Assembly: GCA_964016885.1 (NCBI GenBank)
Contig: OZ024741.1
Coordinates: 219,914,001-219,978,000 of the forward strand
Origin: Eledone cirrhosa
Taxonomy: Eukaryota
Length of the DNA: 64,000 bases
Direction: 5' to 3'
Shown here piece by piece: positions 14,031 through 61,258 of the stretch; the stretch's first letter is position 1; every line of letters begins with the position of its first letter. The notes under the pieces are model-generated. The model made no database searches. It had not been told where the DNA came from and saw only the letters and a program-made list of their open reading frames with translations. The translations under genes were made by a program, and so were the position numbers.

Positions 14031-14949
14031 CTCGGCTGACCCTTCCTCCCACTTTCACTCACTCCCTCCCGGCTCCCCCTCTCACTTCCTCCCGTCTGAC
14101 CTGCTTGAATTTCTTTCCTCTCTCAATCTTCTCGCAGCTCGGACGTGTCTATTTCTCTTCGTCAATTTGATATGTCGAGCTTAAGCCCACATGATTCATT
14201 GACTTGTCTCTATTTTCCTCTCTTTACGTTACATACCACCATGTGTTTGTTTCCTTCCCTCTCTTTTCCCACTGTCCCGATAACTTAATTGAATTATCGC
14301 TCGCACTGATTTTAGGTATCTAGTCTTTAATGCGTCGAAATACCAACGATAATCAACAGACTACTGAAGTGGACATTGTAACCCTTGTCTTATTTTATTC
14401 ATATATTCATGTTCGCAACAACGCAGCACGCCATTCTTCATTCACATAATTTTTCCCTTCGCTGTGATTCGTATTTTTACTGTCACTTAACTGCTATCAC
14501 CCTTACTCTCTCCTTCACCTCTTGCCTTCCTCAACTCCCGCTGCTGGTCACTCACTCTCGACTGGCCCTTCCTCCCACTTTCACTCACTCCCTCTCTGCT
14601 TCTCCCCCCTCTCACTTCCTCCCGTCTGACCATCGTTGCCCTTTTGTTCAAAACCGACAAAGGAACGATGTACTAGTTTCAAATGTTCGGTAAATCCATA
14701 CGTATACACACATATATATATATATACTACTGTACGTCTGTATACATATGTGTATGTACGTATACATACTTATATTTAACAGCCGTACTAAGAGTGAGAA
14801 ATGAAACTTCGTTTCATTTTTTCCGTTTATCGGTTTCGGTGCGCCCGACCGATTAACTGACTCGATAATCAAATTAGGCTGCTCAGCCGTTAATATGCAT
14901 AAGGAAAGTATGTACTTTCAGACGTTCAATCATCTGGCAGGAAGGTATA

Positions 14950-14990
14950 CGTTGCTGACGATAGCTAATAAGCTTGAAACTAGTGGATCG
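14950..14990 (+). ncRNA. Degenerate minimal hammerhead ribozyme (PLE type)
   Basis: cgttg-CTGACGA-t agct aata agct t-GAAAC-TA-GTG. The inverted half copy near 14666-14682 keeps GAAAC-TA-GTA-catcg. Confidence 0.6.
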
Positions 14991-15381
14991 TTCCTTTGTC
15001 AGTGTTGAACAAAAGGGCAACGATGGTTGCTAAACACTGTACGGCTTAATTCGGGATGTTTGTTTACAAACACACCGAGCATTATAATAAATGTTCGGTA
15101 AATTCATACGTACATATATATATCTGTGCATGTATGTATATAAATACATACTACTGTACGTCTGTATACATATGTGTATGTACGTATACATACTTATATT
15201 TAAGTAACAGCCGTACTAAGAGTGAGAAATGAAACTTCGTTTCATTTTTTCCGTTTATATATATATATATATATATATATATATGAATGAAGTAATTCCG
15301 TCGGAAAAGTCCACGAAAAAAGAGTGCTCTATGTATGTAACAGAGCTTAATAGTTATGTAATAAACAAGATAAGGCAATTA

Positions 15382-15442
15382 TTCCATTTACCAGTGGTTT
15401 CTTAAAAAGCAAAAAATTTTGCTTTCAATCATCAGAATGAAA
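15382..15442 (-). ncRNA. Type-I hammerhead ribozyme
   Basis: tttcatt-CTGATGA-long stem II ttgaaagcaaa/tttgctttttaa-GAAA-cc act gg-TA-aatggaa. Confidence 0.8.
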
Positions 15443-15968
15443 AAATCCTGGTCTGTTTATTGATATTGGATTTTATAAACAAAAATGCAATCTATATGAA
15501 AGTGAGGCTGGAGAAGGAAGAAGGAAAGGAAAAATAAAATAAAAACACACATGCAAACACACACACACACATATGTATACATACACACATATATATATAT
15601 ATATATATATATACATACACTCATACATACACACACACATATACACATATATGTGTATATATATACACACATACACATACATATACACATACATACACAC
15701 ATAAATATGTGTGTATGTATGTATGTGTATATGTATGTGTATGTGTGTATATATATACACATATATATGTGTATATGTGTGTGTGTATGAGTGTATGTAT
15801 ATATATATATATATATATATGTGTGTGTATGTATACATATGTGTGTGTGTGTGTTTGCATGTGTGTTTTTATTTTATTTTTCCTTTCCTTCTTCCTTCTC
15901 CAGCCTCACTTTCATATAGATTGCATTTTTGTTTTTAGAATCCAATATCAATAAACAGACCAGGATTT

Positions 15969-16027
15969 TTTCATTCTGATGATTGAAAGCAAATATTTTT
16001 GCTTTTAAGAAACCACTGGTAAATGGA
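15969..16027 (+). ncRNA. Type-I hammerhead ribozyme
   Basis: tttcatt-CTGATGA-ttgaaagcaaa tatt tttgcttttaa-GAAA-cc act gg-TA-aatggaa; GUA cleavage triplet. Confidence 0.82.
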
Positions 16028-16419
16028 ATAATTGCCTTATCTTGTTTATTACATAACTATGTATATATATCTATATATATATATATATATATATATATAT
16101 ATATATATATATATATATATATATATATATATATATATAAGTATATATATGTGTATATATATGGGGGTTGATAGTGAGTATGTATATATTTGTGTTGGTT
16201 ATGCATGTTCGTTTATCTCTCTCGCTCTCTCTCTCTCTATCTCTCTCTCTTCCATTTTTCTCTCTCTCCTCTCCAATCCCCCTCTCTCAGTCTCTTTCTC
16301 CTCCAATCCCAGGAGTTCTCCCCCAATCTCTCTCTCTTTCTCTCTCTTCCTCTCTCTCGGCAAATGTCATGACGGTACCCGTATAATTTCATTGTAACTT
16401 CATTAAAGTCTAAAGGTTC

Positions 16420-57781: not shown

Positions 57782-58182
57782 CGGTTTCAACACACGATTT
57801 CAGATAAAGAATCTTGCTAAACAAGTTCAGAAACGAAATATATATATATATATATATATATATATATATATATATATATATATATATATATATATATATA
57901 TATATATATATATATATATATATATATATATATATATATATATATAAATATATATATATGTATATATATATATACACACACACACACACACACACACACA
58001 CACACACACACACACACACACACACACTCATATATATATATATATATATATATATATATATACATATATATGTGTGTGTGTGTGTACAGAGAAATGATCG
58101 TAAAGCAGTGAAGTATATTTCTAATGACTTGAATTTTTATTTCATTGTTTTAACTTATATATATATGTATGTATATATATAT

Positions 58183-58665
58183 ATATTGTTATACTTTGGG
58201 AGGGTCATGTTGCCAATAAGAATCACACACACCAAGCTTTCACTTTAATTTATTATAAATTAAATTTATAAATTTCCGGTTGGTTGGTTGGTTCCACAAC
58301 CAGACGATTGTTCATATATTGTCAAACTTCTTTCGTCACACATTCTGTGACCTCTTCAGTGACTGGGTATTCTTTTCTTTGTTTTTGTGCCTCTCCTTTG
58401 TTCTGTCCTACGCCATCTTGTTTTTGTGAAGATGGCGTAGGGCAGAACAAAGGAGAGGCACAAAAACAAAGAAAAGAATCCCCAGTCACTGAAGAGGTCA
58501 CAGAATGTGTGACGAAAGAAGTTTGACAATATATGAACAATCGTCTGGAACCAACCAACCAACCAACTGGAAATTTATAAATTTAAATTATAATAAATTG
58601 AAGTGAATGCTACTAGTGCGTGTGTTTCTTATTGGCAACATGACCCTCCCAAAGTATAACAATAT
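58183..58665. repeat. 483-bp palindrome with 9-nt loop and outward hammerhead-like motifs at 58321-58363 (-) and 58485-58527 (+)
   Basis: gtca-CTGAAGA-g-gtcaca gaatg tgtgac-GAAA-gaag-TT-tgac in both arms. Confidence 0.88.
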
Positions 58666-59313
58666 CGGTTTCAACACACGTTTTCAGATAAAGAATCTTG
58701 GTAAACAAATACAGAAACGAAATATATATATATATATATATATATATATATATATATATATATATATATATATACATATATATATATATATATATATGTG
58801 TGTGTGTGTGTGTGTGTATATGTATATATATATATGTGTGTGGCTGAGTGGTTAGAGAAAGATAAGGAAAAGAAAAAATATTATAACAAATTAAAATTTG
58901 AATAACGCTATTAATAAAACAAAAAATATTGAAATGTTATCTCGCACCCCTGGAATGCTAATTCACATCTCCATGTGTTGAGTACACCCCTGGTTGGGAA
59001 ACCCTGGTCTAGACAGAGAAAATGGAATTCCGTCGATTTCGACGACGAGTCTTCCAGTTTATTGATCAACGGAAAAGCCTGACTATGAAATTAACATATA
59101 AATGGATGAGTATTCCACAAATACGTTTGCTTTTAACATAGTTCCCAGGAGATTCAGCGTGACACAGTTGGTAACAAAGGTTTGCTGTTTGAATTACAGA
59201 CACAATCCATCCGATGGGTTCCAAATAGACTTCGTCTAACAAATTTCAGTCAAAAGGCATGAGTCAACCTGAGACATTGGTCAAAGATGCCATGTTAAGG
59301 ATCGAACGGGAGA

Positions 59314-59620
59314 CCTTCTTCTTCTTCTTCTTCTTCTTCTTCTTCTTCTTCTTCTTCTTCTTCTTCTTCTTCTTCTTCTTGAGAAGGTCGTGGGGGCAGA
59401 GTCACCAAACACTCCTTCCAACTTGTCCTGTCAGAAGCAAACGCCTCCAACTGATCCGACTGGATCCCTAAGCGTGACCCGCCAAGCTCGCGGATGTCAT
59501 CCAACCATCTTGTTTAGGGATCTACTCCTGGGTCTCCTGCCGGATAGTTTGGCCTGCAAAATCTGTCCAGTTCTTTCCTCAAACATTCTAACCACATGCA
59601 CATAGTATTGGAGCTGTGAT
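59314..59620 (-). mobile_element. RTE-type LINE 3' end with (GAA)n tail
   Basis: GRRPR..DDIREL..FASDRTSWKE matches the RTE C-terminal signature; (TTC)n at 59314-59380 on the plus strand. Confidence 0.65.
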
Positions 59621-59941
59621 CTCTTAATTCAGAGAAGTAGCGGCTCTACCTGAAGTGACTCTCTTATTTCTAATCTGCACCCTTTATCGAGTAACGGCAC
59701 TCTAAAGACCTTTGGAGGAACTGCATTTTGCCCGTTTTATTCACGATAGTGTTTTTTCGGTCATTACCCAAGAATAACGCATCGATGTTAGGGACGTAAT
59801 TTGAAAAAAACACCCTTCTATTTACGGGTAGACAGACAATGTGGCCTTCGTTTATATCTAGATATTCATATATATAAATAACACTGGGGAGAATAATTTA
59901 TATATATATATATATATGTATACATATATGTATATATATAT

Positions 59942-61258
59942 ATTATAAAAAAATAAACCAAAGAAGCCTTCAATACATCAAAAGTCTTTATTAGCCAACA
60001 ATGCTTCGTCCTATTAAGGACTCATCAGGGCAAGTAAAGCTACAAGAAGCACTATCGGCCAATACAAGCCAAAAACTCAGAAGAATATGGAGTATACATC
60101 TATTAAAGCTTAGGAAAGATATTAAGGAAAAGTTGGCTAAGATTAATAGTGATCAGTTACAAACATAGATATGGACCAAATAGCAAGGACGTGATTAACA
60201 TGTTGAACCCACATTGCAAATATTATATAATGCAAAAATTTGAAACACAAATGGTAATATAATGCGAGAATTACAGTACGATATAGAATATAATATAATA
60301 TAATAGATGGTGATAATAAAAAGCTTAATATATTTATATATATATATATCAATACATATACACATTAGTACAAACACAAACTAACACTTATTAAGTATTT
60401 AAATATATATATATATATTGTTTACAGTATAATATAATAAGGATAAAAATAAGAATAAAGATAAAAATAAAAATAAAATATAATATATAATTCCCTGTCA
60501 GTGTGCATAAACAGTATAGAAACATTATAATAACATTATAATAACACTATTATAATATATTGGCATCAAAAGATATACAAAATTACATCATATATATAAT
60601 TCAAGGTTAACAAATAGTAAAAAAGTTTTACACAGGGTAAGAAAAAATCATATCGAACTAAATAGTGTTGAAAAAATTGTGTTGAAAAAATATCTATACC
60701 ATTGTAACAAATACACAGAGGTCAAGTCATTATACATTGGCATAAATATTACCAAAATATCACAAAATATTACAAAATATATTTACGTGGTTGACATACA
60801 GACATATATTAATGAAATTACATGGTCAGACAAACAGCGTGTGGTAGTAAAATAATAAATAAAATAAACCGAAGATCGAAAAACAAAAACAAGTATATTT
60901 ACTTAGGTGTCACGAGCGGTTAAGTAAAAGAAAAAAGATAGAAATGTAGACCAGAGAGTTGACTAGAAAACCTTATTAAATTAATTAATATTAAAAGTAT
61001 TTAAAATACATATTTAGTCACTTCAAAATTAGCTAGGGTTTAAGTCATCAAAACCTTATAAGTTTAAGATATCTCAATAAAATTATCAAGAATAGAGTAA
61101 AATATGTTTCGTTCATTCGAATAACGTTATCAAATAAAAGGACTCTAAATAGAACTATGGTAGACCAATGGGAACAGAAAGAATTGGGAACGAAACATTG
61201 TTGACTAATAAAGACTTTTGATGTATTGAAGGCTTCTTTTGTTTATTTTTGTTATAAT
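59942..61258. mobile_element. Fold-back with 68-bp arms (59942-60009 / 61190-61258); hammerhead at 59994-60031 (-)
   Basis: gcc-CTGATGA-gtcct taat aggac-GAAG-c att g-TT-ggc. The right arm keeps the GAAAC half only. Confidence 0.72.

What the first reader, a model, noticed from the sequence alone, without database searches (positions are those of the whole stretch)
14629..61258. Recurrent hammerhead-tipped fold-back architecture: palindromes with outward-facing ribozymes
Seen: at least 8 inverted-repeat structures (14629-15027, 15350-16060, 21246-22779, 36371-36637, 49764-49906, 57194-57781, 58183-58665, 59942-61258) from about 6 unrelated sequence families. Each has a full, half or degenerate minimal type-I hammerhead in its arm(s), always oriented outward, usually next to (TA)n and with no ORF between the arms. 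Known: Penelope-like elements carry minimal hammerheads with palindromic loop 3 in their pLTRs and can have inverted pLTRs. Inference: these are either products of fold-back second-strand priming during PLE insertion or a class of non-autonomous ribozyme elements. Where both arms are complete, transcription from either strand would give a long hairpin RNA with a potentially self-cleaved 3' end, a possible source of dsRNA, endo-siRNA or A-to-I editing substrate.
Basis: partly seen in the sequence, partly recalled or inferred. Interest (0 to 1): 0.78.

Follow-up and report, generated by a model that had tools for sequence, protein, structure and literature searches.

The report
Mirror-image stubs of Penelope retroelements
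The eight palindromes are real head-to-head insertions of several Penelope-like jumping genes, a known layout, and their junctions suggest each was likely built on the spot by copying the element's RNA from both broken DNA ends, often up to the RNA's capped start.

Summary
Observation confirmed: eight inverted repeats, six families, hammerheads facing outward. They are 5'-truncated insertions of Penelope-like elements (PLEs; mostly Hydra-type, one Neptune-like) with an inverted pLTR, a layout already in print. Five of the six families trace to RT/GIY-YIG ORFs; the sixth is a tandem, retrozyme-like unit.

The junction data add to this. In 140 of 143 head-to-head pairs one arm ends at the tail end and the other at the tail start. 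In 61 of 118 neither arm contains the other, which simple cDNA fold-back cannot produce. Short arms pile up at family-specific 5' stops, not at the ribozyme cut.

One family has 353 palindromes with the same centre within 0-6 nt. The centres carry non-genomic G (16 of 17 one-base centres) and occur in both polarities, so they are independent insertions, not a mobile palindrome.

Likely mechanism: both target ends prime at the two tail sites and run to a capped RNA start. The self-cleaving hairpin idea is disfavoured, because folding buries the ribozyme. No RNA data were available. The scan noted similar stubs and sharp 5' stops in other genomes.

The parts
14629..14682 (-). Family E inverted fragment (half hammerhead; stops short of the family boundary, no (TA)n)
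14682..15258 (+). Family E: about 1.3 copies of a ~430-nt head-to-tail hammerhead unit (retrozyme-like, no ORF found), core at 14955, ends at tail end then (TA)n
15282..15708 (-). Family B tailed arm (tail 15282-15349, hammerhead 15382-15442)
15706..16060 (+). Family B tail-less arm (hammerhead 15969-16028), ends in (TA)n
21246..22522 (-). Family C tail-less long arm (hammerhead 21293-21358, then 3' UTR with an internal deletion)
22549..22865 (+). Family C tailed arm (hammerhead 22667-22732, tail 22780-22865)
23047..23115 (-). Solo hammerhead of a C-related family; broken Hydra-type ORF remnant upstream at 24414-25943 (-)
34556..35568 (.). Head-to-head pair with the same tail-less/tailed asymmetry, but no canonical hammerhead core found
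36285..36500 (-). Diverged family C tailed arm (hammerhead 36419-36480)
36565..36639 (+). Diverged family C tail-less arm (damaged half hammerhead)
49670..49825 (-). Family F tailed arm (tail 49670-49758; decayed core)
49837..49911 (+). Family F tail-less arm, starting at the family 5' stop and preceded by a non-genomic G; U4A hammerhead variant
50463..55005 (-). Decayed full-length Hydra-type PLE (family I) with direct hammerhead pLTRs (50581-50651, 54788-54851), RT 52786-54639, GIY-YIG 52196-52723
57194..57641 (-). Family D tail-less arm (core at 57392)
57647..57837 (+). Family D tailed arm; an internal deletion removed the hammerhead; starts with the last ~20 codons of the ORF
58183..58428 (-). 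Family D tail-less arm, ends at the family 5' stop
58429..58721 (+). Family D tailed arm (core at 58489, tail 58666-58721)
59942..61183 (-). Family A tail-less long arm (core at 60028, GAAA mutated)
61190..61358 (+). Family A tailed short arm (half hammerhead, tail 61259-61358)
61436..61490 (+). Family G hammerhead stub between (TA)n runs
61510..61781 (-). Solo tailed family D copy (hammerhead 61726-61768)

Best explanation
These are dead, 5'-truncated head-to-head insertions of several Penelope-like element families into (TA)n, and each was likely made in one event in which both cut DNA ends primed reverse transcription on the element's uncleaved RNA. One end primes at the far end of the tail and the other at the tail start (inferred). 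Both cDNAs are antisense and grow towards each other from opposite sides, so every 3' end, and the hammerhead near it, faces outward. The two cDNA ends are then joined bluntly, through microhomology, or by a template jump (inferred). When priming uses the pLTR/tail copy at the 5' end of the mRNA, both cDNAs run off at the transcription start and copy the cap as an extra G, which gives short palindromes with a recurring centre (inferred). Priming on the 3' copy of a read-through transcript gives long arms, up to a whole ORF. The ribozyme is a passenger in these products. Shown: structure, asymmetry, orientation, family links, 5' stops, extra G. Inferred: two primings, one RNA molecule, transcription start and cap.
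For: Family links. Families A, B, C, D and F sit collinearly downstream of RT/GIY-YIG ORFs. Five intact 821-aa ORFs of family I differ by 0.6-2.4%.

Asymmetry. 140 of 143 head-to-head pairs have one tail-end arm and one boundary arm (with 12 ambiguous pairs re-read by eye). Of 118 pairs not chosen for being palindromes, 35 have the tail-less arm longer, 22 the tailed arm longer and 27 equal, and 26 have only an inverted tail piece with no duplication. Both arms carry the same subfamily variants: 1.3-3.6% differences within pairs vs 4.0-9.0% between loci. 258 of 286 outer ends abut (TA)3.

5' stops. 14 of 107 arms (C), 12 of 104 (D), 16 of 91 (F) and 6 of 42 (I) end within 3 nt of one site, against 0.7-2.3 expected if uniform. 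Only 0-2 per family end at the ribozyme cut.

Family F. 353 loci have both arms at that stop with a 0-6 nt centre, control 1. Among the 50 listed, 16 of 17 one-base centres are C/G and 16 of 30 longer ones read C...G. 0 of 44 read-through copies have G there, against 6 of 11 stopped arms. Family G has a TATA box 30 nt before its stop in 2 of 3 long copies and the same extra G in its palindromes.

Literature. An anole PLE cuts and extends both strands in vitro, starts at two internal sites that bound the tail, is modelled as a dimer and uses uncleaved RNA (PMC11167929). An extra G at full-length L1 5' junctions reflects the cap (PMC11702581). The Penelope start site lies in the pLTR (PMC8557442, PMC2377424).
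Against: No RNA was available, so start sites and caps are inferred from DNA only. The hotspot positions were picked after seeing the data. Loci were the top 25-30 BLAST hits per family and had to reach a set distance upstream, which inflates pile-ups near that distance for C, D and F. Families A and B show no clear stop, and F, C and I have no convincing TATA box. Only the first 50 of 353 centres (all on contig C1) were listed. Three of 143 pairs break the one-tail rule. Same-subfamily arms could also come from two RNAs of one source locus or from gene conversion. Target-site duplications cannot be read in (TA)n.
Confidence: 0.68

Rival explanations
1. Fold-back or self-priming: one cDNA (or an antisense template) folds on itself and copies back, making the second arm from the first. 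This is the first reader's option and is close to the self-priming proposal in PMC3846280.
For: Arms share subfamily variants. 46 of 118 junctions overlap by 2 nt or more. In 22 pairs the tailed arm is longer, so the short arm is nested in it.
Against: In 61 of 118 pairs neither arm contains the other: 35 have a long tail-less arm with a short tailed arm, and 26 have only an inverted tail. Centres of 0-3 nt leave no stem or loop to prime from. The model gives no reason for copy-back to stop exactly at the tail start.
Confidence: 0.1
2. Two primings as above, but the fixed 5' stop is not a capped start. It is a reverse-transcriptase stall, or a processed RNA end set by hammerhead stem I, and the extra G is a non-templated addition.
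For: In families F and G the stop coincides with the 5' edge of stem I. An earlier scan note reports the same in another genome. In G the extra base could be templated by stem I fold-back.
Against: In C, D and I the stop lies 67-88 nt upstream of the core. In F, stem I fold-back would add T to the cDNA, not C (read from the sequence). Symmetric C...G centres and G after stops 2-3 nt further upstream fit capping. Non-templated additions usually favour A (recalled).
Confidence: 0.15
3. The short palindromes are mobile non-autonomous units (MITE-like or PLE-mobilised) amplified from a master copy.
For: The 49.8k palindrome recurs end to end: 40 of 40 top hits and 71 exact copies of one centre.
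Against: That centre lies both ways relative to the tail (16 vs 11 of 30, 3 unscored). More than 20 different centres appear among 50 loci. The ends are asymmetric rather than terminal inverted repeats, and arm lengths form a continuum up to whole ORFs.
Confidence: 0.04
4. Later DNA-level inverted duplication, or assembly fold-back artefacts.
For: Such mirrors exist here: the mariner palindrome at 36634-37571 and a mirror centred on a microsatellite in L176. Nine tail-to-tail pairs were seen.
Against: A mirror copy cannot give one tailed and one tail-less arm with unrelated flanks. Arms differ by 1-4%. Contigs of public short-read runs X1 and X5 also show tail-to-arm joints ending at 49837 (X1 may be the assembly's own sample).
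Confidence: 0.03

Closest known systems
Canonical EN+ PLE insertions with inverted pLTR and tail (PMC8557442 Fig. 2; PMC3846280; PMC2377424 Fig. 1C)
   Same: An inverted 5'-truncated copy abuts the 5' end head-to-head, the tail is at one end only, there is a hammerhead in the pLTR, and microsatellites are the target.
   Different: Tails are 58-101 nt rather than 30-40 nt. Here the one-tail rule, non-nested arms, 5' stops and extra G are counted over 143 pairs; I did not find these counts in the passages read.
Opposite-strand dual min-HHRs of Schistosoma PLEs (PMC4209133)
   Same: Pairs of minimal type I hammerheads 100-700 bp apart on opposite strands, with palindromic loop 3, ascribed to truncated PLEs.
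   Different: That paper does not give orientation or mechanism in the parts read. Family F has a fixed U4A core.
Hydra clade PLEs (PMC8557442, section 11)
   Same: C-terminal GIY-YIG, DKT, an RW motif, CxCX5C linker, hammerheads and (TA)n targets, in families I, A, B, C and F.
   Different: Described there as a few families in aquatic invertebrates; here very abundant (43,413 first-look candidates). RWT/RWR instead of RWK. Family D has a CX4CxxC linker instead (Neptune-like).
Anolis Poseidon PAc in vitro (PMC11167929)
   Same: Two reverse-transcription start sites bounding the tail, both strands cut and extended, AT-rich target, ribozyme cleavage not needed.
   Different: The parts read do not link this to inverted pLTRs or to run-off at a capped 5' end.
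L1 twin priming and cap-derived G (PMC11702581 passages; twin priming model recalled)
   Same: Two target ends prime on one RNA, giving inversions; extra G at full-length 5' ends.
   Different: In L1 the second primer lands at variable internal sites and arms barely overlap. Here both sites are fixed and 58-101 nt apart, so the pLTR is duplicated.
Non-LTR retrozymes (10.64898/2026.07.22.740005; PMC7229834, listing only)
   Same: Family E is a ~430-nt head-to-tail type I hammerhead unit with no ORF and PLE-like ends.
   Different: Only family E fits. The other five are truncations of coding elements.

Membership tests
EN+ Penelope-like element | Single ORF with RT and GIY-YIG endonuclease linked to the repeat | tested here: met
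   A: L171/L172/L174; B: L182-L185 (EN part); C: L176/L177; D: L179/L181; F: L181; I: intact 821 aa in L186-L190. Pfam and PDB gave no hit; the Atlas neighbours carry GIY-YIG/RVT_1 in part of their members.
EN+ Penelope-like element | pLTR in direct or inverted arrangement | tested here: met
   Direct at window 50463-55005, L188 and L190; inverted at L181, L187 and L189
EN+ Penelope-like element | Tail extension at one end, equal to the leader after the 5' pLTR | tested here: met
   140 of 143 pairs; the tail runs into the ORF leader in L187 and L188
EN+ Penelope-like element | Type I hammerhead in the pLTR | tested here: met
   the F core is non-canonical
EN+ Penelope-like element | RT phylogeny within PLEs | not tested
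   No reference set was held; the assignment rests on motifs
EN+ Penelope-like element | Target-site duplication | tested here: inconclusive
   Cannot be read inside (TA)n
Hydra clade | DKT, RWK-like and CxCX5C motifs; (TA)n targets | tested here: met
   all three in I and F; CxCX5C in A, B and C; DKT in A. D lacks them and has CX4CxxC.
Active hammerhead ribozyme | Self-cleavage as monomer or dimer | not testable with these tools
   Folding only
Mobile palindromic element (MITE-like) | Symmetric ends and one inherited centre | tested here: not met
Non-LTR retrozyme | Head-to-tail units each with a type I hammerhead, no ORF | tested here: met
   Family E only: 18 tandem events, L132, L133, L142. 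Not met for A-D and F.
Non-LTR retrozyme | Circular RNA expression | not testable with these tools
   No RNA run was available

The most novel reading that the evidence does not exclude
This genome holds tens of thousands of frozen intermediates that show how PLEs make their inverted ends. A dimeric PLE enzyme primes both target ends on one capped, uncleaved mRNA at the two tail sites and can run both cDNAs to the cap. The palindrome centres therefore map each family's transcription start to the base, and one abundant family spread with a probably dead (U4A) ribozyme at the first nucleotides of its mRNA.
Probability: 0.5. Interest if true: 0.65.

Novelty: new member of a known kind. Interest (0 to 1): 0.47.

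Why it matters
The objects are ordinary for PLEs. How PLEs form tandem and inverted ends is described as still undefined (PMC8557442), and the one proposal I read invokes self-priming on an antisense template (PMC3846280). The junction counts here argue against that and link the two start sites seen in vitro (PMC11167929) to the inverted layout. They give base-level predictions: start sites, cap dependence of the extra G, and the need for two extendable ends. They also warn that recurring short palindromes of this kind could be mis-annotated as MITEs or SINEs. A rough extrapolation (14 events in 0.6 Mb) gives about 70,000 such inverted repeats per genome, a possible but untested source of double-stranded RNA.

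Tried and rejected
Searches that gave nothing useful. Rfam at E<=1 gave miRNA-like noise on microsatellites and one sub-threshold hammerhead. Pfam found nothing on the PLE ORFs, nor did PDB. The homologue search gave 28 mostly unnamed proteins. No RNA holder was listed for the family F stretch; this is no evidence either way. Single-strand folding of the hammerheads gave z-scores from -1.9 to +0.8, uninformative for minimal motifs. The 34.5-35.5k family was not sampled genome-wide, only against held loci (5 locus records, two of them the same place). Independent read support for a perfect family F centre remains open. The paper on dimer-cleaving PLE hammerhead variants (PMC5785218) is not held, so the effect of U4A is recalled, not checked.

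Ideas rejected. (1) A splice junction creating the F core or the extra G: no AG acceptor precedes the stop, and no shared upstream exon was seen among stopped arms. (2) RNA 5' end set by ribozyme cleavage: 0 of 46 (A), 0 of 51 (B), 1 of 107 (C), 1 of 104 (D), 0 of 42 (I) and 0 of 97 (E) arms end there. For F the script's site was 4 nt off; the list gives 2 of 91. (3) Family B as a non-autonomous unit: its double pLTR lies downstream of endonuclease-coding sequence. (4) A fixed polarity of the F centre.

Rows dropped. Family E was left out of the 143-pair tally because its tandem units blur tail calls (9 tailed/tail-less, 8 tailed/tailed, 1 tail-only). The 25 palindrome-selected F loci were left out of the 118-pair and 5'-end counts. 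Duplicate loci were removed by sequence.

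
Full report
Observation. Self-BLAST finds all eight inverted repeats at or near the stated places. A hand-written descriptor finds the hammerheads, and arm-by-arm reading shows all facing outward. 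A strict descriptor gives 8 hits in the window and 0 in 30 shuffles. In 60 evenly spaced 10-kb stretches of the same 3-Gb genome it gives 48 hits against 1, 1 and 0 in three shuffles (block-wise dinucleotide shuffles). Of those 48, 19 have an inverted partner upstream (14 events), 1 of these also has one downstream, 13 have only direct partners (11 in one array) and 16 have none. The feature is real, genome-wide and not special to this window. The window also holds hammerheads without partners and palindromes without hammerheads.

Identity. I sampled the top 25-30 of 650-2,100 candidates per family and extended long copies. Families A (60k), B (15.4k), C (21k, 36k), D (57k, 58k) and F (49.8k) are the 3' ends of elements with RT and C-terminal GIY-YIG sequence collinearly upstream. 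The window holds a decayed full element with direct hammerhead pLTRs at 50463-55005 (family I). Its RT finds 43,413 first-look candidates and many open frames of 821 aa, five of which differ by 0.6-2.4%. Motifs place I, A, B, C and F in the Hydra clade as defined in PMC8557442 and give D a Neptune-like linker; no tree was built. Family E (14.6k) is a ~430-nt head-to-tail hammerhead unit with no ORF found. L189 shows the same palindromic layout around an intact ORF, so the lack of an ORF in the window's examples is truncation.

Anatomy. Every family has two fixed 3' ends, the pLTR boundary and the end of a 58-101 nt tail, each usually followed by (TA)n (258 of 286 ends). The tail is the leader that follows the 5' pLTR. 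Of 143 head-to-head pairs in six coding families, 114 are tailed plus tail-less, 26 are tail-less plus an inverted tail piece only, 2 have two tails and 1 has none (with 12 re-read). Nine tail-to-tail pairs were seen, mostly across a (TA)n run. In the evenly spaced stretches the count is 24 head-to-head to 3 tail-to-tail. Among 118 pairs not selected as palindromes, the tail-less arm is longer in 35, the tailed arm in 22, and they are equal in 27. With the 26 tail-only cases, 61 of 118 are not nested, so one arm cannot be a copy of the other. Arms of a pair share subfamily variants and differ by 1.3-3.6%, against 4.0-9.0% between loci. This fits one template source and subsequent ageing, and not an assembly mirror. 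Contigs of public runs X1 and X5 also show joints from the inverted tail or arm to position 49837; X1 may be the assembly's sample.

Recurring centres. In most families centres are unique. In F the whole palindrome recurs (40 of 40 top hits), which at first looks like a mobile unit. However, 353 loci have both arms starting at the same base with 0-6 nt between them (control 1), the 50 listed show over 20 different centres, and the commonest three-base centre (71 loci) lies either way round relative to the tail (16 vs 11 of 30, unique flanks). The bases next to the stop are C on the cDNA side: 16 of 17 one-base centres and 16 of 30 longer ones at both ends. None of 44 read-through copies has G there, while 6 of 11 stopped arms do. 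Family G behaves alike and has a TATA box 30 nt upstream in 2 of 3 long copies. C, D and I have stops 67-88 nt upstream of the ribozyme core, and almost no arm in any family ends at the ribozyme cut. The hotspots were chosen after inspection, and hit selection favours arms of at least query length. A and B show no clear stop.

Mechanism. The simplest account is two primings, one from each target end, at the two tail sites, followed by joining of the two cDNA ends (46 of 118 junctions overlap by 2 nt or more, 27 are near-blunt, 45 have inserts). Priming near the 5' end of the mRNA ends at the capped start and gives short stereotyped palindromes. Priming on the 3' copy gives long arms. This agrees with the in vitro behaviour of an anole PLE (PMC11167929) and with cap-derived G at L1 junctions (PMC11702581). 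The structure and counts are shown; two primings, a single RNA molecule, the start site and the cap are inferred.

The RNA idea. If a complete palindrome were read through, the sense hammerhead is predicted 95-100% paired to its antisense copy, at a cost of 75-100 kcal/mol to free it (B, C and D), so self-cleavage is unlikely there. Production of double-stranded RNA is possible but untested. Family F has CAGAAGA in 134 of 135 held copies (many were found with F queries). That this disables cleavage is recalled knowledge.

What is known. Head-to-head inverted pLTRs with a tail at one end, (TA)n targeting and opposite-strand hammerhead pairs are in print. What I read: PMC8557442 (passages and sections 10-11), PMC3846280 (passages and Discussion), PMC4209133 (parts 1-2 of 4), PMC2377424 (passages), PMC11167929 (parts 1-2 of 4), 10.64898/2026.07.22.740005 (part 1 of 5), and PMC11702581, PMC13282606 and PMC6765202 (passages). 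Searches showed no paper linking PLE inversions to twin priming or to cap-derived G. The library lacks most subscription papers, and I did not open the supplements of PMC8557442 or PMC11167929, which may bear on this. Three earlier scan notes on other genomes report similar stubs and sharp 5' starts. My reading was on record before I saw them.

Verdict. A real feature and a new set of members of a known kind. The value lies in the junction evidence on an open mechanistic question. Interest 0.47.

Noticed in passing
window 36641-37560: Near-perfect 0.9-kb palindrome of a mariner 5' end (Mos1 HTH_48), inserted right beside the 36k PLE pair; no hammerhead and no other copy among held loci.
   Followed up: partly
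window 34556-35568; L181:6618-7321: A ~530-nt tandem unit with PLE-type tailed and tail-less ends but no canonical hammerhead; its driver element is unknown.
   Followed up: partly
window 29210-33313 (+): 1,367-aa open frame rich in Asp, Glu, Lys and Cys repeats, probably an exon of a host gene.
   Followed up: no
L210:251-3381: Tandem array of 11 units of 310 nt, each with a minimal type I hammerhead: a typical non-LTR retrozyme.
   Followed up: no
L182-L185; family B: The master element has a second pLTR about 1.2 kb downstream of the first, separated by what looks like captured flank, like Adineta Pen1.
   Followed up: partly
L224, L278, L298: A recurring composite of a family F fragment, an unrelated ~80-nt spacer and an inverted tail piece; it may be a mobile derivative.
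   Followed up: no
family D copies: About 20 arms begin 150-151 nt after the core, 30 nt before the boundary; possibly sister families sharing only the terminal 30 nt.
   Followed up: no
window 39799-40574, 41238-41488 and many 70-190 nt repeats at 9k-52k: Abundant tRNA-like SINEs, some in inverted pairs, without hammerheads.
   Followed up: no
window 1-13361, 4857-10263, 17309-19291, 38625-39209: Broken LINE-type RT and endonuclease frames of several families.
   Followed up: no
L176:8690-9510: Perfect inward-facing mirror centred on a (TA)n/(CA)n run; a DNA-level fold-back or an assembly artefact.
   Followed up: partly
family D, about 60 nt before the core: AAGATGGCG lies just after the 5' stop and resembles the YY1 site near the L1 start (recalled, not tested).
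   Followed up: no
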